Below are positions 1,016-38,335 of a stretch of 44,021 nt of DNA, piece by piece. The notes beneath the pieces are model-generated. The model saw only the letters and a program-made list of their open reading frames with translations, did no database searches and was not told the origin of the DNA. The translations under genes were made by a program, and so were the position numbers. Each line of letters starts with the position of its first letter. Position 1 is the first letter of the stretch. Source of the stretch: a virus; UHGV virus genome UHGV-0153635; one strand, written 5' to 3'.

Positions 1016-1246
1016 CTACCCCTCATATTTAGTGTTGAAACAGCCAGCATTAGCAGCAGCCTCAGCTTGTTCACGTTGATATAATTCCCAAAGAGCCTCT
1101 ACATCATAGCTTGTGAGCCACACCGTGTCTACGTTCGGGCTATCCTCCGGCCCCCAGGCTTGCTGGACCTTGTAGATACTCTTGCCCAGCGGCCCCCGGG
1201 GTGGCAGTACCTGGATGTCCAGGTTGTGCTGTGTTTGCTTAGTCAT
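1016..1246 (-). CDS. hypothetical protein (start ambiguous: ATG 1246 or ATG 1312)
   Basis: ORF track 1016..1312; ATG at 1246 has AAGGAG upstream and overlaps the upstream stop by only 8 nt. Confidence 0.4.
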   Translation of the reverse strand: MTKQTQHNLDIQVLPPRGPLGKSIYKVQQAWGPEDSPNVDTVWLTSYDVEALWELYQREQAEAAANAGCFNTKYEG

Positions 1247-1454
1247 GCTTAGGCATCTCCTTACCACAGTCCGCGCAGCAGCGCTCGGCCCCCTTTCCTT
1301 TAAACCACTCATGCTGGCACTGCTGCCTCAGAAGCTCTAGCAGCATCTTGTAAGCCTCTAGCTGGTATTCCTCGTTAAGTGAGATATTCATACGTGCCTT
1401 GTATATCTCCAACCACTTAACCTTCTCCTGCAACGTCTCAGCGTTAACTTGCAT
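1239..1454 (-). CDS. hypothetical protein (71 aa), C-terminal Cys cluster CCADC
   Basis: ORF track; ATG start; overlaps upstream stop. Confidence 0.45.
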   Translation of the reverse strand: MQVNAETLQEKVKWLEIYKARMNISLNEEYQLEAYKMLLELLRQQCQHEWFKGKGAERCCADCGKEMPKHD

Positions 1455-2127: not shown

Positions 2128-2253
2128 TTTGTGCTTCCTTCTTCAATAAGTTTCATTGCCCGGCCCCAGGCTGACTCAGCGCTGAAGCCGTTAGCGAGTA
2201 GGTACTGCATGTACTGGTACGCAATGCTCTGGATAGTCATACCGTGCAACCTC

Positions 2254-2414
2254 TAAAGTGCTGTGATAAGTGTATTAGGGTAGCTGGCGCGTAAGCCCTG
2301 CCACGTTGCTGAGAAATAAAAATAAGCCTGGTGGCGAATCTTACGACGGTCCATATCCGGGTACAGCTTAGTGAGGGATTTTGTAATCTTGCTTAAGCGT
2401 TGTTGCTTTGTCAT
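2254..2414 (-). CDS. hypothetical small basic protein (~53 aa)
   Basis: Manual translation; ATG at 2414..2412 lies 9 nt downstream of the AGAGG inside the conserved 12-mer AGAGGTTGCACG. Confidence 0.3.
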
Positions 2415-2438
2415 GTCGTGCAACCTCTGTTTAGTTAG

Positions 2439-2636
2439 TTAGCGGAACAGCTCTAGCAAGCGCAGAATCAACCGCGCTATACCTTCGCAGATATAAGGTA
2501 GCAGCACTATAGCTGCCATGACCAGGAAGAACGTTAGCCAGAACATTTGCGGCCCCCAGTAAGCATCAGGAACAGCGCGAACATCTCTGCTTCGCGCTTG
2601 CGTTCTGTTTCGACTGTCTGATTGTTCATACTGCAC
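2439..2636 (-). CDS. hypothetical small membrane protein (track start is GTG; an internal ATG would give a 35-aa hydrophobic peptide)
   Basis: ORF track; hydrophobic stretch FWLTFFLVMAAIVLLPYI; start uncertain. Confidence 0.35.
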   Translation of the reverse strand: MQYEQSDSRNRTQARSRDVRAVPDAYWGPQMFWLTFFLVMAAIVLLPYICEGIARLILRLLELFR

Positions 2637-3846: not shown

Positions 3847-3998
3847 GATAGTACACCTTTAGTTAATGAGCCTATCAAGACACTAGCCGGATTGTTAAAG
3901 AGCGCTACTGCCTACTACTTATCGATTATCCAGGCTTCGTATGCCCTGGCGCTACTCCCCGTTACCGGGCGGCTCCTTGCCTCTCGATGTTGTGTTCA

Positions 3999-4026
3999 CT
4001 ATAAACAGGGCACTTCTAAATGTCAA
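3999..4026 (-). promoter_or_regulatory. sigma70-type promoter candidate (TTGACA - 17 bp - TATAGT), reading toward lower coordinates
   Basis: Minus strand reads TTGACAtttagaagtgccctgttTATAGT; hexamers and 17-bp spacing read directly. Confidence 0.5.
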
Positions 4027-4029
4027 ACT

Positions 4030-4515
4030 TTATTTTGCTCTGTGGAACTCTTTTGTTAATGCCGCGCTCACACGGACAGCCGCTGAGTGCGCAACCTCTG
4101 CGCTGCTATAACCCTCCTTGCAATAGCGCTTACCGTCCACCACTACCACGTATTTAAAACCGTCTACAGTTCGCTGCACCCATTTAAAACCGCTGGTATT
4201 ATTAGCCGGACGTTTACTATTGTGCCTGTTCTGCTGAGGTGTTGCAGCTCTCAGATTCTCCACTCTATTATCTTTTGGATTCCCGTTAATGTGGTCAACA
4301 ACCTCTGGGTAGAACCCGTGGTGCAGAGCAAATATAATCCTGTGTATACAGTAGTATGCGCCATCTACACGGATTACTCGGTAACCTTTAGCAATCTGAG
4401 TACCTAATGGTTTATTGGCCTGCCGCCCTTTACCAGGCACCCTCCAGTACAGAACGCCCTTTGTACTTTCATATCGCATGTTGCTACGCACAAAATCTAA
4501 ATCTAAATCCGCCAT
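4030..4515 (-). CDS. HNH homing endonuclease (paralog family member 1)
   Basis: VDHINGNPKDNRVENLR...QQNRHN HNH motif; ATG 4515 with AGAGGG RBS (track start 4551 is further upstream). Confidence 0.8.
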   Translation of the reverse strand: MADLDLDFVRSNMRYESTKGVLYWRVPGKGRQANKPLGTQIAKGYRVIRVDGAYYCIHRIIFALHHGFYPEVVDHINGNPKDNRVENLRAATPQQNRHNSKRPANNTSGFKWVQRTVDGFKYVVVVDGKRYCKEGYSSAEVAHSAAVRVSAALTKEFHRAK

Positions 4516-4901: not shown

Positions 4902-4903
4902 TT

Positions 4904-4955
4904 AAATGTCCTCAAATTAATTACCTATAGTATATAGCGTAGCGCCTATACGCTA
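4904..4955 (-). repeat. copy 1 of a duplicated ~45-bp upstream element (second copy 5555..5604)
   Basis: Shared core AAATGTCCTCAAATTAATTACC plus TATAG..AGCGTAGCG..TATA with hairpin potential, read on the plus strand in both copies. Confidence 0.5.
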
Positions 4956-5534: not shown

Positions 5535-5554
5535 AGTACCCTCCTCAACATAGT

Positions 5555-5604
5555 AAATGTCCTCAAATTAATTACCCTCCTTATAGAGCGTAGCGAGTAT
5601 AAGG
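5555..5604 (-). repeat. copy 2 of the duplicated ~45-bp upstream element
   Basis: Same core as 4904..4955. Confidence 0.5.
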
Positions 5605-5632: not shown

Positions 5633-5661
5633 ACTATAGCACTCTGTACCTTAACGTGCAA
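5633..5661 (-). promoter_or_regulatory. sigma70-type promoter candidate (TTGCAC - 17 bp - TATAGT) overlapping one copy of the conserved 12-mer
   Basis: Minus strand reads TTGCACgttaaggtacagagtgcTATAGT about 100 bp upstream of ATG 5534. Confidence 0.35.
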
Positions 5662-5689
5662 CCTCTGTAGTTAAAGCTGTGGCTAATCC

Positions 5690-5945
5690 TGTGCTATCTC
5701 CGGTCTATACCTGTGGAGTCTATGGCTATCCTTAGGCTATCACTGCGCTGCACAGAGAAGACGAAAAGAGGTAAGGCAGCGCCCACCTCCGCCACCACAC
5801 TAAGCACAGCCCAGAGCTATCACTCAGAGCCAACCAGAGCCACGCTAAGGCTATCACAGGGCTATCCCTATGCTATCCCATTGGCTATCCGGTAGAAGCG
5901 CTTAGAGAAGCTCCCAGAGCCTCGTAGAGGCCCCAGGCTATCCGC
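5690..5945. repeat. array of about nine GCTATC-core heptamer repeats (GGCTATC on plus, GATAGCC in phage orientation); candidate genome-terminus region
   Basis: Copies read at about 5693, 5724, 5735, 5816, 5849, 5860, 5870, 5883, 5937 in the only large intergenic gap between the last late gene and the first left-end gene. Confidence 0.55.
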
Positions 5946-6159
5946 TGGTAAGCACAGGCCCCCACCCCACCCCGGCCTTAGTTATGGCTGAGGCACCCCC
6001 TATGGGGGAACTGAGGGGCGTTGAGGGTGAGGGCCAGCCTCGCGTAAGTATAACATTTTTAGGGAGCGAGTATACACCTGCCCCAGTGACAATCCCATAC
6101 TAAGCCTGCCAGCTCTAGCAAGCCCAATGCACTGGCACTGAGCCTGCTCAGGGACCAAC

Positions 6160-12855: not shown

Positions 12856-15800
12856 TTAATCATCTCCAAAGTTATTAATGATGGCTCGCGTAGGCGCGAA
12901 CTCCTGAATCAAAGGCATCTGCTTAGACAAGCCCTTTGCATCTACATTACCGCTAGCTACGTCCTGCATTAAGCCGAGCATACCCATGATGTACCCCATA
13001 CCAGCCAAGCTATGACGCGGGGATTGGTCCCCAAATACATCCTGAATCATAGTAAGACCACCGAGCACGGACATACCCATTACTGCATCCGTAATGAGCT
13101 TCTTGTCAGACTGTTCCCCGGCTTTCCCATCCAGAGCATACTTAGCCTGGGTCATGAGCAGCATCATAGGGAACTGGTATGCAGCGATATGCGCTAAGCC
13201 AATCCAGCCTGCATCATTCATCTCCCTGCGCAGAATCTTGTTCGTAGCAGCCATAGCAAAGCTCTGGTAGCCTACAACAACCTTCCCTACTGGGCTGAAT
13301 TGTGCAAAGTGACTGGTCTCACCTGTACGCACCTGCTGCACTACGTAGTCCATTAAGCGCGAGCCTACAACTTCCATTTGCATTTGCAGGTCCGGTGGTA
13401 GCATCTTCCCAGGGTTCTTGGCATACGCAGCTTGCATCTGCTTAGCGAGGTCCTTATCCAGGCCCCAGCGCTCCAGGCGCTTGACTGCATCAGCAGAACC
13501 ACTGAGCATACTCTGCAACTCGTCCATAACGATACCAGAGTTCCAGTTAACCTGCGCCCTGTGCACCATGGACATCCCGTTAACATGCCGAGCAGCCTGG
13601 CCTACGTTCTGTGTAACGTTGAACCAATTGCTACTGCGTGTCAAATCCAGGTTATCGTCAGCATAGGTATTGAGCCAGCGGAAGCGCATCTCCTTCTGCA
13701 AAGAGCCTCGCAGGATAGAATCCAGGCGCCCAGCCATGTCCTGGTCCTTAAAGACTACTGAGCCTTCCTTGAACCACGGTTGTTCGCGCATACTCCGAAG
13801 CACGCGAGCCATACCAAACTCTTTCATAGCCAGAGCTGTGTCGGTAATCTGGTACAGCGCGGAGTTCTTGAGCATGGTTGCGTTAGCAAGGTTCCCAGCG
13901 GCACGGAAGATTTCAGGAAGCTGTGCTCCTGCACCACCCGCTACACCGCCGAGCATGAAGTCGATGGTGTCATTCACAGCCTGTTCCCATCTACCCGGGT
14001 CAGCCAGCGTATGCTTACCGTCGTTAATCATAGTCTCAAGCTGCTTCAGGTCCTCTATACCCGCGTAGGACATGCCTACACGCCCCGACATCCTGTTAGT
14101 GTACCCATGCATTACCTTGGCTACATCAGTGTCCAGGAGGTCCTGTAAGCGCATTGGTTGCCCATCCACGATATACTCCTTGGACATATTAAAGCGGTTA
14201 CGCTGCTTCAGGTTCCGGGCAGGGGCAGTGGCTCCAGATGGCTTAACGTTAGTCGCTAAGAACCCTTGGATATCCGCCTCATCGATGCCCGCTTGCCGCA
14301 TAGCCATGACAAGTTCATCATTGCCCATACCGTTAATAAGCTGCTTCCACATAGGCCCAGTACCACCAGCCCGACCATTATAAATACCATCCGTAATCTC
14401 CTTAGCTACGCGCTGGACTACTTCAGATTCCATGGTAGGGTAGATATCACGCAGGGCCTGACGGAACAGGTCCCGGTAGTTATCCAGAGTACGCCCCTCT
14501 CGTAGAGCCTGTCGCATCTTGTCGTAACTGTACTGGCGCGGGAAGTAGTAGTCTGAGCGTACAATAGTAGCGTCGTCTACAAGCCCAGAGGCCTGCATAT
14601 GGTCGTACCATTTCCCAGCCCAACCAGAGTCCTTATACGCTTTAATTACCGGGGCAATGTCCTCTGATGGCACAGGTACAGCACGCCCAGCTACCTCAGC
14701 AGAATAAGCATCATCAAGGTATACACCTACACGTTGCTCCAAGTCCCGTCGCGCAGTGATAAACTTAGAACGATGGAAGAACCTGTCCAGCATACCTACG
14801 CCCTGCTGTTGCTTCAGGGCGCTTGTAATAGCGTCCTCAACGACACTGGCACTGGCATCCATCTCAAGCATCAGGTTACGCTTAAAGTCTGCTACAGAGG
14901 GTTTACGAGCGCCTACAGCAGCTCCATCAGATACCAGTAAATCTGCGAGGTCCTTGTTACCCTGGGCGATGTTATCATACAGGGCGAAGTTGGTTCTGAA
15001 GCCTGTCTTAACCTTATCCAGCAGTTTCTGGTCCCCTGCTGGGGTAGCTGCTACGTTCTCTCCGAAGCTGGACATGGACTCGCTCTTGAAGCGCACGGCC
15101 TGGGCATCTTCAGCCGCAACCTTAAGTACACTCTCATAGGAATCCAGAACCTTGGCTAACGCAGTGTCATTACCCTTGTATCCCAGGGCACGCAGAACTG
15201 TCTCACCGATACGGCGCAGCAGCGTCTTATCCCCGACCTGTACAGAGTTCAGGTAGTCCACCCAGTGCTTGCTATCCGCTAACCCCGCCAGCATCTCCTC
15301 TGGAGAATTAGCGAAGTAGCGCAGGTTCTTGGGTAGGTCTGCACGTCCCAGAAGCTCATGTCCCAGCTTCTGCAAGGTTTCTCTTGCAGCAACAGCCTCA
15401 GGTACAGTGGAGCTGATAGCTCGTACTGTAGCAGCGTGTACAAGCTCATGCACAGCAATCTTAGCAGTGTTCTGGTCCAGAGAGTTCAGAGCATCCCCTA
15501 CAGTGCTCCAGGTCTTACCCTGAGAAGCTTTACTGGCACGCATAGCAACGTAGTCTGTACCTTGCTCTGGCATGCGATAGTACGCGCTGCGCAGGTTCGT
15601 GTCCCCTGTCAGGTGCACAGATACATCATCCACTAAGCCATCCAGTGTCTTCAGAATAGCTTTCTGACCATCGTCCAGATACGTAGACTTCATGAGGTGC
15701 TCAGCAACATCCTTAGCACGCACTACAACCTTCGCCTGCTGCCCTTTCAGTACCTGGATAGGTTCTACCAAGGACTTAGCCGCAACCTCCTCAGAGGCCG

Positions 15801-20347: not shown

Positions 20348-22708
20348 TTAAACCCTCTGTCTGCGTTGGTTGTATCTAAGGATGTACGAAACATCCAGCA
20401 CGTTCATCTCTTGAGTACCGGACGTACTGAGAGTTACCTCGGTTGTATCTGAGTTAGTACGGCAAGGGATTATAATGTTTCCTAAGTCAGCCTTGAGCGG
20501 AAGCCCCGGGGCTAGTTCTTTAGAGTTCATTAGCACCCCTGATACTTCGTCAGTTGTATCTACATCCCGAGTAGTATCTAGCACCTCTACGTCAAAGTCC
20601 CCGGAGCTGCGGATAGCTACATCCAGGCGCAGTAAACGTACGTGCCCAGAGCCTACGAGGTTGTCATTCTGGTCCTTCAGCATAGGCGGCGTAAGCTTCG
20701 CCAGAGCCTCTGTACGTAGTCCTACGTAGTAGCTACCGTCCGGTACACCCCGAACTGTTTGAACGTTCCAAGAGGCGTCCAGGCCGCTTAAACCGAGTTC
20801 TGAACCTGCTGCTGTAGCATCCTCTTTATAAGCCAGAGCAATGTCCTCTACGGTAATACCGGGGAAGCGTAGTGCCGCTGGTAAAGAGAAGCTGCGACTG
20901 CTTACTGCAACTGCCAGGGGCAGGTCCACGTACGGGTAATCATAAGCTGCACCAGCAACGAAACCCTCACGCGGGTCTACTTGCAGGGCCTGTACGTTCC
21001 CGTTAGCCCCGCGTACAAACAAGTACATAAGCTCGGACTGTGCGTGCATATTCAGTATCGTAGCAGGGAGTACCCACTTGTGATAAGCTGCCTGAGACTT
21101 AGCCCCATCAGAACCCCACAGGAACTCATACACCAACAGGGCATTACGCTCCCCAGAGTACCTGAAGAACCCGATGTTCGTAACGCTGGAAACATCCATA
21201 CTCATAATACGCCCTGGGATGTACTTCGGTAAATGCACTGTAGCATCCTGAGAGACGTACTGCGAGGATGTGTAAGCCGAGGGGATGAACTCTAGCAACC
21301 CAGCGTAGTTCTGATTGCGTCTGTTGGCATACAGAACAGTCTGCCCTGTAACGATAGGAGATACCCTGCTGTCACAGGAGAACTCTGAGGTTAGGGTTAT
21401 GCTGGCGTTAGTGGGGGTAAGCGCATTCCCACCCGGAACTACAGCCTGCATACTATCCCCGAACACTACCAGGTCCCGGTTGAACTGTAGAGCTGTACGG
21501 AACACGGAGTCCTGCGCTGAGGCAGAGGCAATGTCTATACGGTCTGTATCCAGCAAGGAGGTCACTGTACTGCGGTAGAAGCGCTGATACAAGCCGCTAG
21601 CGCTCATGCAGATACTCGCCCCAGAGAGCAGGACCAGCCTGCCCTGGAACGCTGCAATACCTGTGATGTACCCGTTCTCTACAAATGCAGGGTCTTCGTT
21701 AGTATCGTCGTCGCCCGCTAATCGCCCCTCGAAGTTGCGCACGATAATATTATCATCAGCTGCCAGTTCCAGAGGCATATTAGAGATGCTACTGATACTA
21801 CCGTAAGCTCCAGCTTCTTCCCAGGTTCTGGTGCTGTAATCGTACTTGTACCAAGTAGCATCCGACCCCGCCTGCCCTACTCTGCACATAGCCCCGTCAG
21901 CAATACTCGGGAGGGCTGCTGGTAAGTCCGATTCTTGGTCCACTCTGCTTTGATTAGACCACGTAGCATAAGTAGTGCCAGAGCTAGAAGTAACCACCAG
22001 GTTAGGCAGGCCACTAATGAAGATACAAGCCCCGGATGAGTCTCGGGTTACTGTACCACCCGCAGCCTCTACTGCTGCACGTATACCGCTGCTCCAACCG
22101 TTGCCACCATCCACCAGGTTCTGCGTAATCGTAGACGCTGCTGCATCCTCTGCGCTAGCCCCAGTGCTAATGTTAGAGTAGCCCGTCACGGAGCCACCTG
22201 TCCAGGACACTGAGATTTCCCAGCGCTTGCCGAAGGCTGCTGTATTCACCCGGAAGAACCCTGTGGTAGTAGGGTTGAGCTTGCCAGTGTTACTTACTGT
22301 AGTAACAGGTTGCTTCTCTGTGTTCAGGATGTAGGTCAGGCCATTGATGCTTGCGGTCTGAATACTAGTAGCCCCGATACTGGTCTGCAAGTACGAACTA
22401 GTACCGGAGTTAATTAGAGTACCTGTATCCTTACTCAGCAACTGCCAGTAACCTGTCTGCGTATTAATCAGCAAGTGCCTGCCGTCTGTACCACGCTCTA
22501 TGTAAGCGGTGAACAGGAAGTCATCGGCAGGGGATACCATACTGGTTAAGCTCACGCTGCGTGCCGGAGGTCTGCGGCGCAACCCAGTAACCGGGTCACA
22601 GAGCATGTTCTGTAAAGCGCCTAACTGCCCAGGCTGGCGCTCTCGTGGAATCTGTTGGGACACACCCTGCAATAAGCTGGGCAGAGTGCCCTCGTATGTT
22701 TTCGCCAA
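20348..22708 (-). CDS. tail tubular protein B (T7 gp12-like)
   Basis: 786 aa; TTG start with AGGAGA RBS; position after tail tubular A. Confidence 0.8.
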   Translation of the reverse strand: MAKTYEGTLPSLLQGVSQQIPRERQPGQLGALQNMLCDPVTGLRRRPPARSVSLTSMVSPADDFLFTAYIERGTDGRHLLINTQTGYWQLLSKDTGTLINSGTSSYLQTSIGATSIQTASINGLTYILNTEKQPVTTVSNTGKLNPTTTGFFRVNTAAFGKRWEISVSWTGGSVTGYSNISTGASAEDAAASTITQNLVDGGNGWSSGIRAAVEAAGGTVTRDSSGACIFISGLPNLVVTSSSGTTYATWSNQSRVDQESDLPAALPSIADGAMCRVGQAGSDATWYKYDYSTRTWEEAGAYGSISSISNMPLELAADDNIIVRNFEGRLAGDDDTNEDPAFVENGYITGIAAFQGRLVLLSGASICMSASGLYQRFYRSTVTSLLDTDRIDIASASAQDSVFRTALQFNRDLVVFGDSMQAVVPGGNALTPTNASITLTSEFSCDSRVSPIVTGQTVLYANRRNQNYAGLLEFIPSAYTSSQYVSQDATVHLPKYIPGRIMSMDVSSVTNIGFFRYSGERNALLVYEFLWGSDGAKSQAAYHKWVLPATILNMHAQSELMYLFVRGANGNVQALQVDPREGFVAGAAYDYPYVDLPLAVAVSSRSFSLPAALRFPGITVEDIALAYKEDATAAGSELGLSGLDASWNVQTVRGVPDGSYYVGLRTEALAKLTPPMLKDQNDNLVGSGHVRLLRLDVAIRSSGDFDVEVLDTTRDVDTTDEVSGVLMNSKELAPGLPLKADLGNIIIPCRTNSDTTEVTLSTSGTQEMNVLDVSYILRYNQRRQRV

Positions 22709-22723
22709 GGGTGTATCTCCTAG

Positions 22724-23284
22724 TTAGATGCGGAAGCCAGCGGCGATACGCCCGGCTGTACGGGTACGTGCAGTACTGTATTTCTGATTACGTAAGTGCT
22801 CTCGGTAGTTCAGGGACTCATACTCAGCAGCCTTAGCAACAAGCTCCTGATAGTTCCCGTCAGCACCAAGGTCATTCAGATACACCTCCGCTGCGGTAGC
22901 ATAAGCTACCCACATAGCGCAGTGCTCTGGCAGGTCCTCGAACTCTATGTCCAGTGTAATCTTTAGATGCACCGTATCCGTGAATACTTTAGTCTGGTCC
23001 GCAAGGTTGTACAGAACCCCGTCACGCTCGCCGTACTTCTCGTTAGTGCAGCTATCATACAGAGACAATTGCGCCCAAGGCACGTTAATGAAGCCCGTAG
23101 TAGTCGTAGGCGTAGCGTCGCGGTAGATGGTGTTGAACCAAAATCCAGTAGCAATAGCACCTTTACGGGTACGGTTCAGGGCTGCACGAGCAAGCCCAGC
23201 AGTGGGGTTGCTTGTGTTGATGTCAACTATACGAGATTCCCCGAGGGCTTCGATAGTGACGTTTACAGCATCAATCTCCCTCAT
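22724..23284 (-). CDS. tail tubular protein A (T7 gp11-like)
   Basis: 186 aa; position after capsid and terminator. Confidence 0.75.
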   Translation of the reverse strand: MREIDAVNVTIEALGESRIVDINTSNPTAGLARAALNRTRKGAIATGFWFNTIYRDATPTTTTGFINVPWAQLSLYDSCTNEKYGERDGVLYNLADQTKVFTDTVHLKITLDIEFEDLPEHCAMWVAYATAAEVYLNDLGADGNYQELVAKAAEYESLNYREHLRNQKYSTARTRTAGRIAAGFRI

Positions 23285-23516: not shown

Positions 23517-23576
23517 GTTTCTGAGGCCCAGAAACGAAAAAAGCCCCGTACCTCCAGTTAAGGAAGCACGGGGCTT
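23517..23576 (-). terminator. intrinsic terminator downstream of the capsid gene (T-phi analogue), two tandem hairpins
   Basis: Minus strand: stem AGCCCCGT/ACGGGGCT followed by TTTTTT, then second stem GTTTCTG/CAGAAAC. Confidence 0.6.
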
Positions 23577-26167: not shown

Positions 26168-27733
26168 TTATGCGATTAAGCCCAGTTGCTGAGCCGCTTG
26201 ATTAGGGTCTGCTGCCTGAAGAGCCTGTTGTTGCTGCTGCGCTGCTTGAGCTGCTCGCGTATCCTCCTGCTCCTGCAACTGCTTCAACTGCTCTTCCGTG
26301 TAGAAGAACTTGCTGCTGTTGATACCGAAGCTATCAAACACCGTATCAATCAAGGCATCCACGTTAGTACGCTTAGTGTACGTTTGTAGCACAGGTACAA
26401 TCAACTGCAAGGACTGCGTAGCTTCCAGTAGGCGGTCATTCTGCGCTGCTTTAGCGAGGGCTGCTGTACCCACCACGACATTCAGTGTCATAGCTTGCAG
26501 GTCCAACAGCGGCTGCATCTGCGGGTACAGCTCCAGACAGTACAGGTACGCCAGCTTAGTAAGCCATACGCTGCTTAGCTGACTGTACGCATCCCCCAGA
26601 GCCTCCTGTGCCTCCTGAGCATTCTGACGAATCTCATACGCCGTAACACGCTCTGCATCCCTGGTGTTGCCTCCGTACATAAACGCGCGGGCAAGACGTT
26701 GCTCAATGCTGGCAATCTCAGCCTGCATGACCTGAATCTTCTGGTAGACGCCGCCCTCATAGGCCCATATACCGGGGCCAGTAGTACCAGCCGGGGCATT
26801 AGTCTGGATGATGTCCCCTACCGCAGCTTCGTTGAATGCGTCGATATCTACACCGGATGCAGAGTTAGACATGTTCACAAAGCGCATAGCTTCAACTTCG
26901 TACAGCGTCAGGGCTTTACTCAGCTCAGATAATCTAGCGAACTCACCCGCGTAGTCCTCAACCAGCCCACGCCCGTAATGCTCAGAGTTAACGCGGTTCC
27001 AGACCAGTACCGTGTACGGGCACTGTTTCTCCGGATAGTAGCTAGGCTCGCCAACAGGTTTATTATCAACCTCCTGGTACACCTTGTAGACTACTGCACC
27101 GCCTTCTCGCACCTCACGGCATACGCCTGTATAGAGTTCCAGGTCCTCGTAATCTGCCTTGTTGTCGTACTGGATACGGTACTCATCGGGTAAATCCCCA
27201 ACGCAGATACGCTCCTTCAGGACAATCAGCATTACATCGCCAGAGCCATTACGCTTAACCGCGTAATCTCGGATGCTGTAGATATGAGAGCGCTGACGCT
27301 GCTTATCCCGGTACTCCAGGGCATTCCCTGTAACCATCAGCAGCTTCGTAGCGTGCAGCTTCGCAGCGTACTCTTCGTCTTTGTAGACCTGTGCCGACGC
27401 AGCCAGCTCAATCTCTGCCTGTACACTCGGTACTTCGCCCTGGATACCCAGCTCACCAACTACACCAGCCAGCTCATCGCTGTCTACGAAGCGGAAGAAC
27501 GGTGCTCCTTGAGGGAACAGCGATTTAACCACCTTGGTACTAGCGGTGTTAATCAGGATAGCTCCGAGGCTCTGGTAGTCCCGGTGCAGCGCCGAGCGCT
27601 TGCCGTCCATACCGGACAGGTCGCGCGTGAACACTGTGGGCAAAGACCACTCCGCGAATTTTTCAGCAGCTGTAAGGCATGAACTATCTTGCAGCTTAGC
27701 AAACAGCCCCGCTAGAGGCTCTTTAGGTTTCAT
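26168..27733 (-). CDS. portal (head-tail connector) protein (T7 gp8-like)
   Basis: ATG 27733 with GGAGG RBS (track GTG 27739 rejected); ATG overlaps the HNH stop as ATGA. Confidence 0.8.
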   Translation of the reverse strand: MKPKEPLAGLFAKLQDSSCLTAAEKFAEWSLPTVFTRDLSGMDGKRSALHRDYQSLGAILINTASTKVVKSLFPQGAPFFRFVDSDELAGVVGELGIQGEVPSVQAEIELAASAQVYKDEEYAAKLHATKLLMVTGNALEYRDKQRQRSHIYSIRDYAVKRNGSGDVMLIVLKERICVGDLPDEYRIQYDNKADYEDLELYTGVCREVREGGAVVYKVYQEVDNKPVGEPSYYPEKQCPYTVLVWNRVNSEHYGRGLVEDYAGEFARLSELSKALTLYEVEAMRFVNMSNSASGVDIDAFNEAAVGDIIQTNAPAGTTGPGIWAYEGGVYQKIQVMQAEIASIEQRLARAFMYGGNTRDAERVTAYEIRQNAQEAQEALGDAYSQLSSVWLTKLAYLYCLELYPQMQPLLDLQAMTLNVVVGTAALAKAAQNDRLLEATQSLQLIVPVLQTYTKRTNVDALIDTVFDSFGINSSKFFYTEEQLKQLQEQEDTRAAQAAQQQQQALQAADPNQAAQQLGLIA

Positions 27734-28877: not shown

Positions 28878-28918
28878 GCTTCTCTTGCCCCTTGTTCTAT
28901 ACGTGCAACCTCTAATGG

Positions 28919-29287
28919 TTAGGATTTGTCCTGCTGCATCAGAAAAGCTATCATCCCTGCTCTTAAATGGTTAGTATCCTGTACTAGCACGTAATCTCCA
29001 TCTCCGTAAGGTGCTCTGGCTGTGTAGCAAACCCGTCCGCCTGAAGCCCCATCAGGACCGTAGTGTACTGTAATCTCTATACGGTTACGGTTTAGGATAC
29101 GCCATGCATCTGCTGGGTTGTTGCAGTAGTCCCGTGAGAAGCCGCCGTACCCATTGTCCATATAGACAACTGAGGAGTTCTGCGGGAAGGTTTTATTGTT
29201 GCATTCTGGTGATTTATTAATATCTGGCCAGAAAACATCGCTCACTCTTTTATTGATTTCAAAATCTGATAACTGTGAATAGTCCAT
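28919..29287 (-). CDS. hypothetical protein (~122 aa) in an AT-rich islet
   Basis: ATG 29287 with GAGAGG RBS, 10 nt after the RNAP stop; track start 29323 would overlap RNAP. Confidence 0.5.
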   Translation of the reverse strand: MDYSQLSDFEINKRVSDVFWPDINKSPECNNKTFPQNSSVVYMDNGYGGFSRDYCNNPADAWRILNRNRIEITVHYGPDGASGGRVCYTARAPYGDGDYVLVQDTNHLRAGMIAFLMQQDKS

Positions 29288-29297
29288 ATTATACCTC

Positions 29298-31739
29298 TCA
29301 ACAAAAGAAGAATGGGGATTCAAGTACTTGCGTTAAGTCCAGAGTGCCTTTCTGAGGCATCTCTAAACCTTCCAGGTCTGCGCCGCACTCTACCGCTGCG
29401 TCAGCCAGCGTTTGCAACGGGTCGTGCTCGGTGTACAAGCGCAGGAACTGCTCACGAATAGCTTTATGCATTGCGTCAACATCACAGGCATGCGTAGCCA
29501 GCGAGTCATGGATAGGCAGGATATCACCGTCGAAGGCGTTCAGTACCATCATCAGGTGCGTACTATCCAGCGAGTGCACGAAGTTCGGAGCGATACCAGA
29601 CTTAGCCTTACGGCGATTGTTCTGCTCGTAGTTACGGTTGTAACTGAGCAGGTACGTCAGGTTCATACTCTGAACTTTAACCCGGCACTCATCAGACTCT
29701 GTGTAGCGGTTAATGACCAACCCACCCAGCGGAGTCTTCCACTGTAAGTGCCGCTTAGTCGGGACACGTCCTGTAATCTGCTGAGCAAAGCGCATAGCCT
29801 TGGCAGCCGCAGGGTTAGCCTCCTCTACAGCAGCGCGCATACGCGGAGCTAAGTACCCTGCGAGCTTAAACAGGCTATACTCCTCAGTAGGCTCATAACC
29901 CTCATCCTTAGCACCCAGTAGGATGTACTCAGAGCAACTGCGTACAGTCGCAGAATACACATAGGTCATACAGGGGCGCTTGGTCATACTCCTAGTAATT
30001 GGGTTCTCTCTCCAGTACGTAGCCTGCACTACGTGCTCTGGGTCAGTGAGGTCCATGATTACCTTGGAGTCCGTGCGCTCCTTCACGTCCATGTACATAT
30101 CCGCTTTCTCTGCGTTACCCTCCCAGAACAGGTTCGTTAAGCGCCCACCGATTGGGTCCCGGAGCATTGCGCTGTAGTGCTGAGAACCCGAGTTTGTAGC
30201 GTCCATAGCGACTGGTACGTGCGATACATACTCTCGCGGCTCCACAGAGCTAAGAGCATTAACAAGCTCGACTGCTGCTGCCAGGAAGCACCATGGACTA
30301 TCTGCCTGTTTAAAAGCGTCCGAATTAAATGGGTCATCTGCCAGGCGTCTAATCGCTTCATAGTTCGCATCAGCCCAAGCTGCACGGGCTTCGAATAGGG
30401 CTTTGTCATAACCAAAGCAAGTGGCGACATGCACCTTGAGCCAAAATAATCCACGCTCCCCAAGCGGTTTTCCGCGACCAAATTCAAGCAAGGCCTTCTG
30501 CAAATCAGAACCTTGTGGGTGCAGGCTGGACTTGAAGTACAGGCGGTATCGCCAATCCACACAAGTCGGGAAGTACAGCTCTGTTTCATCTTTGAACTCC
30601 TCGCACATACTTACGGTTGTAACCAGGGCGCGAAGCTGCCCTACGCGAGTACGCTCATCCGCGTACCACTGGCGCATATGCATCTTCCACTCCTGGAACT
30701 CCTCAAGCTCACGCTCAGTGTACTCTTCCTTAGGCACACCATCCAAGCGCCACTCTGGTTTAGGGGCTGGGTTGCTGCTAGGCATGCCTGTGCTTACTCC
30801 CAAGGCACGCGCCTGCTGCACCAGCTTCAGCATAGTCTTATTAATACGGTACGGCACTTCCTGAGCACGATTCAGAGCCTGCTGTAACTGCGGAGCCTGC
30901 TTGAACGCCTCGGCTACTTCACGCTTCATGCTTCGCTGAATCTGTGAGTTGCTGTAAGTACCGCGTCTATCAATGTCCGTGAGGTATCCACCGGAGAACA
31001 TCGTATCATGCGGCTGCGGCGGGATAAGCATAGGTGGCTTCAGCTGCACTGTATCGGCGTGCTCTACCAGCTCAGACAGTACCTGCTCCAGCGCTGGGGC
31101 TGGGGTGAGATACTGCAACTGCGTCTTATCGCGCTTGCTCCACACGAACAGCCCGGTTTCCCACACCGCCTGCATCAAGAGCTTGCCCACGGAGATGCAC
31201 TGTGAGTTCGACCAAGGCTCATGCTGGTAATGCACGTTCTCAGCAGAGGCACGCAAGGTCTTCAGGATATGCGAGGGGCTGGTGGTATTACGTTCCTTCA
31301 GGTACTCATGCACCCGGTTCATATATGCCGGGGCTACAGCCTGGAGCTGCACAGCCAGTAGCTCCGCCTGAACCTGACGGCCCAGCGCAGAGAGCACGGA
31401 CTGTGCTGAGCTGGCACTGTTAGTGCCTACGTTAGAGAATAGCGAATCGAAGCACTTCGTCAAGGACATTACGGCCAGGACATCCGTAGGGATTAAGCGC
31501 AGGAACGCGCGGTACTTAGCGCCTACACCAGCAGTCTTCTCCTGCTTAGTGCTGTTGATGCCTGCGCATACAGTGTCGTATGCAGCCGCAATCATACGCT
31601 GCACTGGCGGCAAGGTGCTGAGGCTACCAGAGTCCAGGGCTTTCTGCACCAGGCTCTTGCTGCGCTCCAGGCTGCGTGTACGGTACTGCTGCTCTAGCTG
31701 GAGCTGTCGCTCTGTGCGTTCTTCTAAGGTTTCTTTCAA
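29298..31739 (-). CDS. single-subunit DNA-directed RNA polymerase (T7 RNAP family)
   Basis: 813 aa; SGSQHYSAMLRD, IAPNFVHSLDSTH, C-terminal ESPFFFC align with T7 RNAP motifs; TTG start with GAGGA RBS. Confidence 0.95.
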   Translation of the reverse strand: MKETLEERTERQLQLEQQYRTRSLERSKSLVQKALDSGSLSTLPPVQRMIAAAYDTVCAGINSTKQEKTAGVGAKYRAFLRLIPTDVLAVMSLTKCFDSLFSNVGTNSASSAQSVLSALGRQVQAELLAVQLQAVAPAYMNRVHEYLKERNTTSPSHILKTLRASAENVHYQHEPWSNSQCISVGKLLMQAVWETGLFVWSKRDKTQLQYLTPAPALEQVLSELVEHADTVQLKPPMLIPPQPHDTMFSGGYLTDIDRRGTYSNSQIQRSMKREVAEAFKQAPQLQQALNRAQEVPYRINKTMLKLVQQARALGVSTGMPSSNPAPKPEWRLDGVPKEEYTERELEEFQEWKMHMRQWYADERTRVGQLRALVTTVSMCEEFKDETELYFPTCVDWRYRLYFKSSLHPQGSDLQKALLEFGRGKPLGERGLFWLKVHVATCFGYDKALFEARAAWADANYEAIRRLADDPFNSDAFKQADSPWCFLAAAVELVNALSSVEPREYVSHVPVAMDATNSGSQHYSAMLRDPIGGRLTNLFWEGNAEKADMYMDVKERTDSKVIMDLTDPEHVVQATYWRENPITRSMTKRPCMTYVYSATVRSCSEYILLGAKDEGYEPTEEYSLFKLAGYLAPRMRAAVEEANPAAAKAMRFAQQITGRVPTKRHLQWKTPLGGLVINRYTESDECRVKVQSMNLTYLLSYNRNYEQNNRRKAKSGIAPNFVHSLDSTHLMMVLNAFDGDILPIHDSLATHACDVDAMHKAIREQFLRLYTEHDPLQTLADAAVECGADLEGLEMPQKGTLDLTQVLESPFFFC

Positions 31740-38047: not shown

Positions 38048-38122
38048 GGGGATTCTCCTGTATTGTCCTATACGTGTTACTTCTATTGCAGCAGTTTCAT
38101 AGTCCTGCTGCAATGTCAAGCA

Positions 38123-38335
38123 TTATTCTACGAGCTTGTACTCGCCGGGGAAGAAGGTTACTGTGTCGTTTATATCAGTCCACAACTCAATCTCCCCGGT
38201 ATCCGGCCAATAAGCTACCACCTCATGCCGCGTGCCCACGGGGAAACGCTTGGCATCTTCTGGGTCAATGTAGTCCAGGTCGTGATGCACAATCTCAATG
38301 ATGCTGCCTACTTTAATCATCTTCCGGCTCCTCAC
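38123..38335 (-). CDS. hypothetical protein (70 aa)
   Basis: ORF track. Confidence 0.4.
   Translation of the reverse strand: MRSRKMIKVGSIIEIVHHDLDYIDPEDAKRFPVGTRHEVVAYWPDTGEIELWTDINDTVTFFPGEYKLVE

What the first reader, a model, noticed from the sequence alone, without database searches (positions are those of the whole stretch)
2243..2427. Exact 12-mer CGTGCAACCTCT (minus-strand AGAGGTTGCACG) occurs four times, each upstream of a start codon
Perfect plus-strand copies were read at about 2243-2254, 2416-2427, 5655-5666 and 28901-28912, with degenerate copies near 38069-38080 and 4100-4112. Two copies sit 9 nt before an ATG, so the AGAGG may double as the Shine-Dalgarno; others are 25-120 nt upstream. 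Four exact copies of a 12-mer are far more than chance for a 44-kb sequence, suggesting a phage-specific promoter core, a translational operator or a processing site.
Basis: seen in the sequence. Interest (0 to 1): 0.5.

Follow-up and report, generated by a model that had tools for sequence, protein, structure and literature searches.

The report
Phage RNA polymerase promoter motif
The repeated 12-mer is most likely the core of the promoter read by this phage's own RNA polymerase, an ordinary and expected feature of this phage group that had not been spelled out for this genus.

Summary
CGTGCAACCTCT occurs exactly four times (2243, 2417, 5655, 28902), always on the + strand, against 0.01 expected by chance. 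All genes run on the minus strand, so the functional reading is AGAGGTTGCACG. The window is a Koutsourovirus-type (phiKDA1-like, KP34/phiKMV-type) podophage genome, reverse-complemented and permuted.

The 12-mer is invariant in five isolate relatives and two metagenomic relatives at three syntenic sites. These are about 100-150 nt inside the terminal repeat, in front of a small early ORF, and just downstream of the phage RNA polymerase gene, where the flanks are otherwise unalignable.

Every copy is followed by four A/T-rich bases, then G, then a purine. That gives a 16-nt element plus a G start, the same layout as the experimentally validated 16-nt KP34 strong promoter. The two share 9 of 16 bases in register and two of three genomic positions. 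Shigella phage Buco carries an intermediate motif (10 of 12 bases) at homologous sites.

Best reading: cognate promoters of the phage single-subunit RNA polymerase (confidence about 0.8, with no transcript data). At the two copies in 2243-2428, AGAGG probably also serves as the ribosome-binding site, and the pair brackets an inserted 53-aa gene. The processing-site, translational-operator and sigma-70 readings are not supported. This is a new member of a known kind, of modest interest.

The parts
2238..2254 (-). Site B2. AGAGGTTGCACG (2254->2243), then GTAT, then G at 2238 (predicted +1). The ATG of a conserved 38-aa ORF is 2240-2238, so AGAGG sits 9 nt upstream as a likely ribosome-binding site.
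   Evidence: The orthologous copy is in front of the same ORF in phiKDA1, EhYP and Pec.
2412..2428 (-). Site B1. AGAGGTTGCACG (2428->2417), then ACAT, then G at 2412 (predicted +1). The ATG of the inserted 53-aa ORF is 2414-2412. The motif starts 10 nt after the stop codon of a small hydrophobic ORF.
   Evidence: The upstream flank matches the single B site of the relatives.
2253..2414 (-). A 53-aa ORF bracketed by sites B1 and B2. It is an inserted gene absent from the relatives, and its stop codon TAG overlaps the first bases of the B2 motif.
   Evidence: Its only homologues are in unrelated phages.
5650..5666 (-). Site A. AGAGGTTGCACG, then TTAA, then G at 5650 (predicted +1). It lies in non-coding DNA about 100 nt inside the terminal-repeat boundary and 120 nt upstream of the first left-end ORF.
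   Evidence: It is invariant in phiKDA1, EhYP, Pec, Entb_48 and L019. Its position is analogous to the KP34 promoter at nt 475 (PMC6834552).
28897..28913 (-). Site C. AGAGGTTGCACG, then TATA, then G at 28897 (predicted +1). It lies downstream of the RNA polymerase gene, 5 nt after the stop codon of an inserted NinX-like ORF, and 24 nt (from the 12-mer) upstream of the first gene of the structural module.
   Evidence: It is a 17-nt island of identity between unalignable upstream flanks in the window, phiKDA1, Pec, KKP 3828 and L015.
29298..31739 (-). Gene for the single-subunit (T7-family) RNA polymerase, the presumed reader of the motif.
   Evidence: It is 64% identical to KP34 RNAP, 70% to Buco, 71% to EM1 and 28.5% to T7. 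The T7 catalytic residues D537, K631 and D812 are in invariant alignment columns.
5705..5721 (-). Candidate variant site A0: AGACTCCACAGGTATA then G. It shares AGA at -16..-14, CA at -8/-7, G at -5, TATA and a G start. Its -9..-5 bases, ACAGG, equal those of the KP34 promoter.
   Evidence: conserved in relatives. Weaker evidence than for A, B and C.
38068..38084 (-).
   Evidence: A positional counterpart exists in Cronobacter phage Peggy at 12955. The site varies at 3 positions among relatives.
1422..1438 (-). Candidate variant site E: AGACGTTGCAGGAGAA then G. It lies inside the first codons of ORF 1239..1454 and is identical to the KP34 promoter plus start base at 12 of 17 positions.
   Evidence: EhYP has AGACGTTGCACG here. 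Because it is in coding sequence, conservation alone is not diagnostic.
23541..23576 (-). Strong intrinsic terminator (15-bp stem followed by a T run) after the capsid gene cluster. It would end the transcription unit that starts at site C.
   Evidence: It occupies the same position as the annotated KP34 terminator at 26623-26660 (PMC4411677).

Best explanation
AGAGGTTGCACG is the upstream recognition part (about -16 to -5) of the promoter used by the phage's own single-subunit RNA polymerase, encoded at 29298-31739. The full element is 16 nt: the 12-mer plus four A/T-rich bases that would melt. Transcription is predicted to start at the G that follows, at window positions 28897, 5650, 2412 and 2238 on the minus strand.

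- The copy after the polymerase gene (site C) would drive the portal-scaffold-capsid module up to the terminator at 23576-23541.
- The left-end copy (site A) corresponds to the left-end promoter of KP34, and by analogy to phiOL of T7.
- The early-region copies (B1 and B2) would re-initiate transcription of downstream early and middle genes.

On read-through transcripts from upstream, the AGAGG of B1 and B2 also serves as the ribosome-binding site of the ORF whose AUG overlaps the start point. The B1/B2 pair arose when a small foreign gene was inserted together with a second copy of the motif.

Shown here: the repeats, their strand, their positions, their conservation, and their similarity to a validated promoter. 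Inferred: binding by the polymerase, the start point and the timing.
For: 1. Count and strand. There are four exact copies against 0.01 expected, all on the gene-sense strand.

2. Host genome. The window is a Koutsourovirus-type genome. Its relatives are phiKDA1, SDFMU_Pec, SDFMU_EhYP, KKP 3828 and Entb_48, at about 84-93% DNA identity.

3. Conservation in relatives. All 19 exact copies in six isolates and two IMG/VR relatives are gene-sense. They sit at three syntenic sites, and each is followed by 4 A/T-rich nt, then G, then a purine.

4. Site C as an island. The motif plus TATAG is perfectly conserved while the upstream flanks cannot be aligned. In phiKDA1 the downstream flank differs as well.

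5. No competing motif. This is the only intergenic 12-mer repeated in all six genomes.

6. Match to a validated promoter. The KP34 RNAP strong promoter T(A/G)ATGTTACAGGAGTA is 16 nt with a G start. It was mapped by 5'-RACE and in vitro transcription at nt 475 (left end), 22197 (6 nt after the RNAP stop codon) and 33721 (PMC6834552; confirmed in sequence). Ungapped, in the same register, site C shares 9 of 16 bases with it (xxAxGTTxCAxGxxTA then G). My binomial estimate for 9 or more matches in a fixed register is about 0.008.

7. An intermediate in Buco. Buco's RNAP is 70% identical to the window's. It has TG[AG]NGTTACA[CG]GGTAT at the left end (with the flank CTTTCATTCGAAAG shared with KP34), 42 nt after the RNAP stop codon, before gp11, and inside the internal-virion-protein gene at the KP34 33721-equivalent position. 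Its 6006 copy matches the 12-mer at 10 of 12 positions.

8. EM1. The in-vitro-active promoter of EM1 RNAP (71% identical) lies at the same post-RNAP site, in front of the homologous gene (PMC9596486).

9. Specificity loop. The residues aligned to T7 739-770 are identical in the window, phiKDA1, Pec and Entb_48 (KKP 3828 differs at one residue at the loop's C-terminal edge), all of which have the same 12-mer. The loop differs from KP34 and Buco, where the motif differs.

10. Precedent in the group. A small number of promoters, with one directly after the RNAP gene, is the pattern found in LUZ19 by ONT-cappable-seq (PMC10914365).

11. Terminator. The terminator after the capsid cluster is placed as in KP34.
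Against: - There are no transcript 5' ends or binding data for any Koutsourovirus, so the start point is inferred by analogy.
- Site C is not universal. In EhYP it is interrupted (AGAGGTTG, then 14 nt, then CACGTATAG). In Entb_48 it has diverged at 5 of 12 positions, although the Entb_48 polymerase loop is unchanged. The site-C copy is therefore dispensable or replaceable.
- EhYP's polymerase has 5-6 clustered changes in the specificity loop, yet it keeps exact 12-mers at sites A and B. A simple loop-motif co-variation model does not predict this.
- The -4..-1 bases differ between sites (TATA, TTAA, GTAT, ACAT).
- At B1 and B2 the predicted +1 is the G of the start codon, so transcripts made there cannot encode the adjacent ORF.
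- An earlier promoter prediction for KP34-like phages, also based on a repeated motif (PMC4411677), was later shown to be inactive (PMC6834552). Repetition alone is therefore weak evidence.
- Identity with the KP34 promoter is only 9 of 16.
Confidence: 0.8

Rival explanations
1. The motif is a portable translation-initiation module (ribosome-binding site plus spacer). It is conserved because it drives translation of the ORF behind it, and it acts as a short homology patch for gene-cassette exchange.
For: At B1, B2 and the B sites of all relatives, AGAGG sits 9 nt before an ATG. Three different genes follow the motif in different genomes, and the window has a motif-flanked inserted gene.
Against: Site A has no start codon for 120 nt. 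Site C is 24 nt from an ATG that has its own GAGAAG/GGGG ribosome-binding region, and in phiKDA1 it is about 350 nt from the next gene. In KKP 3828 and Entb_48 the 38-aa ORF is translated from a different site without the motif. A ribosome-binding site needs only about 5 nt, not 12 invariant ones.
Confidence: 0.06
2. The motif is an operator for a DNA-binding regulator, phage or host, or part of a host sigma-70 promoter with TTGCAC as the -35 element. It would control early transcription rather than being read by the phage polymerase.
For: Three of the four copies lie in the early and left-end region. In the window, TTGCAC at site A is followed 17 nt later by TATAGT.
Against: TTGCAC matches TTGACA at only 3 of 6 positions. 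The consensus scan reports no sigma-70-like site at any copy. The -10-like hexamer is not conserved in phiKDA1 or Pec and is absent at sites B and C. The motif is not palindromic, as most operators are. The copy after the RNA polymerase gene and the in-register match to the KP34 promoter are left unexplained.
Confidence: 0.06
3. The motif marks site-specific single-strand interruptions (nicks) in virion DNA, as described for phiKMV-like phages. In those phages a short strand-specific consensus occurs a few times per genome.
For: Copy number is low, strand bias is strict, and this is a short consensus in a phiKMV-type phage. Precedent: CGACxxxxxCCTA/CTCCGG in phikF77, phiKMV and LUZ19 (PMC3517423). 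The same idea was raised for a KP34 motif (PMC4411677).
Against: The motif has no sequence similarity to the known nick consensus. It is confined to intergenic positions, which fits transcription signals. It is homologous in sequence and position to a motif shown to be a promoter in KP34 (PMC6834552).
Confidence: 0.03
4. The motif is an RNA-level element, such as an RNase III or RNase E processing site or another structured signal in the polycistronic transcripts.
For: T7-group phages process their long transcripts at intergenic sites, and all copies here are intergenic or at gene boundaries.
Against: The 92-nt windows around the four copies have no common fold, and their folding energies are ordinary (z-scores -1.4, -0.2, +0.6, -0.4). 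No inverted repeat accompanies the motif. Rfam finds nothing in the window.
Confidence: 0.03

Closest known systems
Klebsiella phage KP34 RNA polymerase strong promoter, T(A/G)ATGTTACAGGAGTA followed by a G start (Lu et al. 2019, PMC6834552)
   Same: - Both are 16-nt elements followed by a G start.
- Both have few copies per genome, all gene-sense.
- Each has one copy shortly inside the left terminal repeat and one just after the RNA polymerase gene.
- 9 of 16 bases are identical in register (GTT.CA.G core, TA at -2/-1).
- In both, part of the promoter (AGGAG in KP34, AGAGG here) lies at ribosome-binding distance from an ATG next to the start point.
- The polymerases are 64% identical.
   Different: - The sequences differ at 7 of 16 positions (AGAG versus TAAT at -16..-13, G versus A at -9, C versus G at -6).
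- The third KP34 copy, inside the internal-virion-protein gene, has no counterpart in the window.
- The early-region B copies have no KP34 counterpart.
- The KP34 promoter is experimentally proven; this one is not.
Repeated motif of Shigella phage Buco (Bucovirus), TG[AG]NGTTACA[CG]GGTAT, found here
   Same: It matches the 12-mer at 10 of 12 positions in its 6006 copy. It has left-end and post-RNAP copies, and one copy overlaps a start codon.
   Different: It has A at -9 and a different -4..-1. It also has a fourth copy inside the internal-virion-protein gene, as in KP34. It is likewise untested experimentally.
LUZ19 / Phikmvvirus phage-specific promoters, GgtTATGTCACacACAnnGG (Putzeys et al. 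2024, PMC10914365)
   Same: There are only four per genome, they are nearly invariant across the genus, and copies sit directly downstream of the RNA polymerase gene.
   Different: The sequence is unrelated. One LUZ19 copy is antisense. The polymerases are only distantly related (about 33% identity for Pseudomonas phiKMV-type polymerases).
T7 class II/III promoters and phiOL (own knowledge of the T7 literature)
   Same: The layout is the same: an upstream recognition block, an A/T-rich -4..-1 (TATA at site C), and a G start. T7 has a left-end promoter (phiOL, near nt 405) upstream of the early genes. T7 also has a family of consensus copies plus weaker variant copies.
   Different: T7 has 17 promoters and an early-placed polymerase gene. 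Apart from TATAG there is no sequence identity. The polymerase is 28.5% identical.
EM1 RNA polymerase promoter, TCAGAAGTCACACTATAA (PMC9596486)
   Same: Its polymerase is the closest experimentally used one (71% identity). The promoter lies at the same site, between the RNAP gene and the homologous downstream gene, with the same spacing to AAGGGG. It resembles the variant site D, AGAAGTAACACGTATAG.
   Different: Ungapped, it shares only TATA and one further base with the 12-mer element. The specificity loop differs (KVAVR..NISQ versus RVKVQ..NLTY). The three 'phiKDA1' candidate promoters tested in that paper are not this motif, and they were tested with EM1 RNAP only.

Membership tests
Cognate promoter of a KP34/phiKMV-type single-subunit phage RNA polymerase | The genome encodes a T7-family single-subunit RNA polymerase. 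| tested here: met
   The ORF at 29298-31739 (minus strand) is 64% identical to KP34 RNAP and 28.5% to T7 RNAP. The catalytic D537, K631 and D812 columns are invariant.
Cognate promoter of a KP34/phiKMV-type single-subunit phage RNA polymerase | A short motif (about 16-20 bp) is repeated a few times, always in the direction of transcription and outside or between genes. | tested here: met
   There are four exact copies, all gene-sense, intergenic or at gene boundaries. All 19 copies in eight related genomes are gene-sense.
Cognate promoter of a KP34/phiKMV-type single-subunit phage RNA polymerase | One copy lies directly downstream of the RNA polymerase gene, ahead of the structural genes. | tested here: met
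   Site C is at 28913->28897. The equivalent is 20-29 nt after the RNAP stop codon in Pec and phiKDA1. Exceptions: it is disrupted in EhYP and diverged in Entb_48.
Cognate promoter of a KP34/phiKMV-type single-subunit phage RNA polymerase | The sequence is similar, in register, to an experimentally validated promoter of a related polymerase. | tested here: met
   It shares 9 of 16 bases with the KP34 strong promoter, with the same 16-nt length and G start (PMC6834552). It shares 10 of 12 with the Buco intermediate. The similarity is moderate, not decisive.
Cognate promoter of a KP34/phiKMV-type single-subunit phage RNA polymerase | The motif is conserved among phages whose polymerases share the same specificity loop, and it differs where the loop differs. 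| tested here: inconclusive
   The loop and the motif are both the same in the window, phiKDA1, Pec and Entb_48 (one residue at the loop's edge differs in KKP 3828), and both differ in KP34, Buco and EM1. However, EhYP has a changed loop and keeps exact copies at sites A and B.
Cognate promoter of a KP34/phiKMV-type single-subunit phage RNA polymerase | The phage polymerase initiates transcription at the site (5'-triphosphate ends, in vitro run-off). | not testable with these tools
   No transcriptome or biochemical data for this genus were found in the library.
Shine-Dalgarno sequence / translational operator | Every copy lies 5-10 nt upstream of a start codon. | tested here: not met
   This holds only for B1 and B2. 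Site A is 120 nt from the next ORF, site C is 24 nt from it, and the phiKDA1 site C is about 350 nt from it.
RNase III-type processing site | A stable, conserved stem-loop contains the motif. | tested here: not met
   There is no shared fold, and z-scores range from -1.4 to +0.6. Rfam finds nothing.
Host sigma-70 promoter | -35 and -10 hexamers are present at 16-18 nt spacing. | tested here: not met
   No copy is reported by the consensus scan. TTGCAC matches TTGACA at 3 of 6 positions, and a -10-like hexamer occurs only at site A of some genomes.
Localized nick site of phiKMV-like phages | A single-strand interruption is present in virion DNA at the consensus. | not testable with these tools
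   The motif does not resemble CGACxxxxxCCTA/CTCCGG (PMC3517423). The physical state of the DNA is unknown.

The most novel reading that the evidence does not exclude
The 17-bp element is a dual-use, portable module. It would be a promoter for the phage polymerase whose 5' half is also the ribosome-binding site of an ORF starting exactly at the transcription start point. Duplicated copies would serve as the homology used to slot foreign small genes into the early region, as with the B1/B2 pair around the 53-aa gene.

In addition, the genus may contain a natural change of specificity. SDFMU_EhYP has lost the consensus copy in front of its late genes, keeps a variant there (AGAAACCACACGTATAG), and carries 5-6 clustered substitutions in the polymerase specificity loop. 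That would amount to a naturally evolved, nearly orthogonal polymerase-promoter pair within 94% identical enzymes.
Probability: 0.2. Interest if true: 0.45.

Novelty: new member of a known kind. Interest (0 to 1): 0.3.

Why it matters
It gives Koutsourovirus phages of Enterobacter and Salmonella a concrete, testable promoter consensus: AGAGGTTGCACG, four A/T-rich bases, then G. This group had no described promoter, and for its relatives motif-based predictions have failed before.

Practical value is threefold. Transcription units can be annotated better. A candidate new polymerase-promoter pair becomes available for in vitro transcription or orthogonal expression. The series KP34, Buco, Koutsourovirus and EhYP gives data points for how specificity-loop residues and promoter bases change together.

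Biologically it is what one expects of a phiKMV-type phage, so the surprise is small.

Tried and rejected
- **IMG/VR scans with the extended motifs.** Most hits were chance matches in unrelated contigs; BLAST against the window found nothing for them. Only phiKDA1 itself and two metagenomic relatives (L015, L019) were informative.
- **Literature search.** I searched for the exact motif and for the related phages. I found no description of this motif. [quoted passage not shown] I therefore cannot tell whether it already lists this motif among its 'KP34-like' predictions.
- **RNA-structure readings.** Single-sequence folds were unremarkable, and Rfam found nothing in the window or in the phiKDA1 insert. 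The conserved stretch upstream of site B looked like hairpins or a terminator, but it is the coding sequence of a 35-aa hydrophobic ORF with no compensatory changes.
- **Sigma-70 reading of TTGCAC.** Rejected.
- **Homologues of the 53-aa inserted ORF.** The aim was another motif-flanked cassette. The homologues are in unrelated siphoviruses and myoviruses, and fetching Escherichia phage EM1 (PQ571293) added nothing.
- **A repeated motif in Cronobacter phage Peggy by k-mer sharing.** Too noisy. A targeted search later gave three loosely related copies.
- **Other phages with the EhYP-type specificity loop.** None exist in the phage collection.
- **A copy at the KP34 33721-equivalent position inside the internal-virion-protein gene.** It is absent in the window.
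Full report
**1. The observation.** CGTGCAACCTCT occurs exactly four times in the 44,021-base window, at 2243-2254, 2417-2428, 5655-5666 and 28902-28913. All four are on the + strand, and dinucleotide-preserving shuffles give 0.01 expected. With up to two mismatches there are ten hits against 3.9 expected. All long ORFs are on the minus strand and GC skew is negative throughout. The biologically relevant reading is therefore AGAGGTTGCACG on the gene-sense strand.

**2. What the window is.** It is a phiKMV/KP34-type podophage of the genus Koutsourovirus (Autographiviridae, Slopekvirinae). The closest records are Enterobacter phages phiKDA1, SDFMU_Pec, SDFMU_EhYP and Entb_48 and Salmonella phage KKP 3828. 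They match at about 84-93% DNA identity over 50-80% of the sequence.
- Gene order on the minus strand is: small early ORFs, primase/helicase, DNA polymerase, RNA polymerase (29298-31739), portal, scaffold, capsid, tail, internal proteins, terminase, lysis genes, tailspike.
- The sequence is reverse-complemented and circularly permuted. The single copy of the terminal repeat maps to about 6032->5770.

**3. Where the copies sit (gene-sense orientation).**
- Site A (5666->5655) is in non-coding DNA about 100 nt inside the terminal repeat and 120 nt upstream of the first ORF.
- Sites B1 (2428->2417) and B2 (2254->2243) each end 2 nt before an ATG. They bracket a 53-aa ORF (2414->2253) whose stop codon overlaps B2.
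- Site B1 begins 10 nt after the stop codon of a small hydrophobic ORF. That ORF accounts for the conserved upstream flank.
- Site C (28913->28902) lies downstream of the RNA polymerase gene, 5 nt after the stop codon of an inserted NinX-family ORF (PF10765). It is 24 nt upstream of the first gene of the structural module.

**4. Conservation in relatives.**
- In the five isolate relatives and two IMG/VR relatives (L015, L019), the 12-mer is present without any change at the same three sites. All 19 copies are gene-sense.
- At site C the upstream flanks are unalignable between genomes, and in phiKDA1 the downstream flank differs too. The motif plus TATAG nevertheless stays identical in the window, phiKDA1, Pec, KKP 3828 and L015.
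- At site B three different genes follow the motif in different genomes.
- It is the only intergenic 12-mer repeated in all six isolate genomes. The other shared repeats are coding-sequence repeats.
- Every copy is followed by four A/T-rich bases (TATA, TTAA, GTAT, ACAT or ATAT), then G, then a purine. The base 5' of the block is variable. The conserved unit is therefore 16 nt plus G.

**5. Comparison with a validated promoter.**
- Lu et al. (PMC6834552) mapped the KP34 RNA polymerase strong promoter by 5'-RACE and in vitro transcription. It is T(A/G)ATGTTACAGGAGTA, 16 nt are required, and initiation is at the following G.
- Its copies are at nt 475 (left end), 22197 (6 nt after the polymerase stop codon) and 33721. 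I confirmed these in the KP34 sequence.
- Ungapped and in the same register, site C (AGAGGTTGCACGTATA, then G) shares 9 of 16 bases with it. My binomial estimate for 9 or more matches in a fixed register is about 0.008. The two elements also share two of three genomic positions.
- As at B1 and B2, the KP34 copy after the polymerase gene contains AGGAG at ribosome-binding distance from an ATG that starts 3 nt after +1.

**6. Intermediates in other genera.**
- Shigella phage Buco (polymerase 70% identical) has TG[AG]NGTTACA[CG]GGTAT at four places. These are its left-end region (flank CTTTCATTCGAAAG shared with KP34), 42 nt after the polymerase stop codon, overlapping the gp11 start codon, and inside the internal-virion-protein gene at the KP34 33721-equivalent position.
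- Its 6006 copy matches the 12-mer at 10 of 12 positions.
- The EM1 polymerase (71% identical) has its in-vitro-active promoter at the same post-polymerase site, in front of the homologous gene.
- In LUZ19, cappable-seq found four phage-specific promoters. Two lie directly downstream of the polymerase gene, and they are nearly invariant across the genus.

**7. The polymerase.**
- Residues aligned with the T7 specificity loop (739-770) read RVKVQSMNLTY in the window, phiKDA1, Pec, KKP 3828 and Entb_48.
- They read RVRIDCMNLSA in KP34, RVRIDSMNLTS in Buco and KVAVRSMNISQ in EM1.
- The same core loop therefore goes with the same motif, and different loops go with different motifs. This is suggestive only.
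- The exception is EhYP. Its polymerase is 94% identical overall but has 5-6 substitutions clustered in the loop (RVTIRSMNITH), a loop unique in the phage collection.
- EhYP has lost the intact site C: AGAGGTTG, then 14 nt, then CACGTATAG. This looks like a deletion derivative of the 320-nt insert that phiKDA1 carries at this site. It nevertheless keeps exact copies at sites A and B.
- Entb_48 has the usual loop but a diverged site C (TTGGGTTGTAGGTATAG), located behind an extra ORF.

**8. Variant sites.**
- All three CASGTATAG occurrences in the window are gene-sense, intergenic, and preceded by AGA at -16..-14.
- A looser pattern written after seeing the sites, AGANNNNNCABGNNWWGR, gives seven hits. 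All are gene-sense, against 0.59 expected for both strands. Across the six genomes the sense-to-antisense count is 33 to 1.
- The three extra sites are:
  - A0 (5721->5705): AGACTCCACAGGTATAG.
- D (38084->38068): AGAAGTAACACGTATAG.
  - E (1438->1422): AGACGTTGCAGGAGAAG. It lies in the first codons of an ORF and is identical to the KP34 promoter plus start base at 12 of 17 positions.
- These may be weaker promoters, as class II promoters are in T7. The evidence for them is much thinner than for A, B and C.

**9. Rival readings.**
- *Ribosome-binding site or translational operator.* This fits only B1 and B2. In KKP 3828 and Entb_48 another gene is inserted after the motif, and the 38-aa ORF then uses its own GGAG site.
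- *Processing site.* There is no shared or unusually stable fold and no Rfam match.
- *Sigma-70 promoter.* No copy is found by the consensus scan.
- *Nick site.* phiKMV-like phages do have strand-specific nick consensus sequences. The sequence here is unrelated, and the question cannot be settled without DNA.
- *A caution.* An earlier promoter prediction for KP34-like phages, also based on a repeated motif, proved inactive. What distinguishes the present case is homology in position and in register to the motif that proved active.

**10. Mechanism proposed.**
- The phage polymerase, made after host transcription of the early and middle region, binds the duplex at about -16 to -5. It melts the A/T-rich -4..-1 and starts at G.
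- Site C starts the portal-scaffold-capsid unit, which ends at the strong terminator at 23576->23541. That terminator is placed as in KP34.
- Sites A and B add polymerase-driven transcription of the left end and of downstream early and middle genes.
- On read-through RNA, the AGAGG of B1 and B2 serves as the ribosome-binding site.
- The B1/B2 pair reflects insertion of a foreign small gene, whose homologues occur only in unrelated phages, together with a second motif copy.
- The first three steps are inferred. The sequence relations are shown.

**11. Verdict.** It is a new, still unvalidated member of the known class of KP34/phiKMV-type single-subunit polymerase promoters. I found no published description of the motif in the searchable library, but I could not check the supplementary tables of a large promoter-mining study. 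Interest is modest at 0.3. Confidence in the promoter reading is about 0.8.

Noticed in passing
window 4903-4950 and 5554-5601 (minus-strand sense): A 48-nt direct repeat (83% identical): TATA(G)GCGCTACGCT(A/C)TATA...GGTAATTAATTTGAGGACATTTA. One copy sits immediately upstream of each of the first two left-end ORFs. It contains an imperfect hairpin and recalls the repeated early-region element of KP34-like phages, which was once proposed as a promoter and later found inactive.
   Followed up: partly
L002 (SDFMU_EhYP) 14654-14770, and site C at 15076-15106: The EhYP RNA polymerase is 94% identical to the window's but has 5-6 substitutions clustered in the specificity loop (RVTIRSMNITH versus RVKVQSMNLTY). 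This loop is unique in the phage collection. The same genome has lost the intact motif in front of its late genes and keeps only AGAAACCACACGTATAG there. This may be a natural change of promoter specificity.
   Followed up: partly
L001 (phiKDA1) 20753-21070: A non-coding insert of about 320 nt sits between the site C motif and the first structural-module gene. It is flanked by an 11-nt direct duplication, CACGTATAGAA. It has no Rfam match and no long ORF. EhYP carries what looks like a deletion remnant of it.
   Followed up: partly
window 28919-29287 (minus); Entb_48 22463-23110; Peggy 20578-21171: The short interval between the RNA polymerase gene and the late promoter is a hot spot for inserted genes. 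The window has a NinX-family ORF (PF10765) there, Entb_48 has a 215-aa ORF, Peggy has an HNH homing endonuclease, and KKP 3828 has an 82-aa ORF.
   Followed up: partly
window 2439-2546 (minus): A conserved 35-aa hydrophobic ORF (MFWLTFFLVMAAIVLLPYICEGIARLILRLLELFR) lies immediately upstream of site B. It is nearly invariant in all relatives. A simple scan partly reads it as a terminator-like hairpin.
   Followed up: partly
window about 5700-5960 (minus): The left-end and terminal-repeat region is packed with short GATAGC/GGATAGCC-type repeats, with a terminator-like hairpin at 5790->5767 near the inner edge of the terminal repeat.
   Followed up: no
window about 38086-38125 (minus): Just upstream of variant site D there is a perfect TTGACA hexamer and a 9-bp inverted repeat (TTGCAGCAG ... 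CTGCTGCAA). The whole block is almost invariant in the relatives.
   Followed up: no
window 3998-4026 (minus): This is the best sigma-70-like site in the early region (TTGACA, 17 nt, TATAGT; 11 of 12 matches). It lies about 1.6 kb inside the left end, downstream of three ORFs (5534-4030) that have no good host-type promoter in front of them. Those ORFs might depend on sites A0 and A.
   Followed up: no
L015 and L019 (IMG/VR contigs 3300045988_068184 and 3300045988_016375): Two further complete-length (about 44 kb) Koutsourovirus-like genomes come from one metagenome. They carry the same motif at sites A, B and C, again with a different upstream flank at site C.
   Followed up: partly
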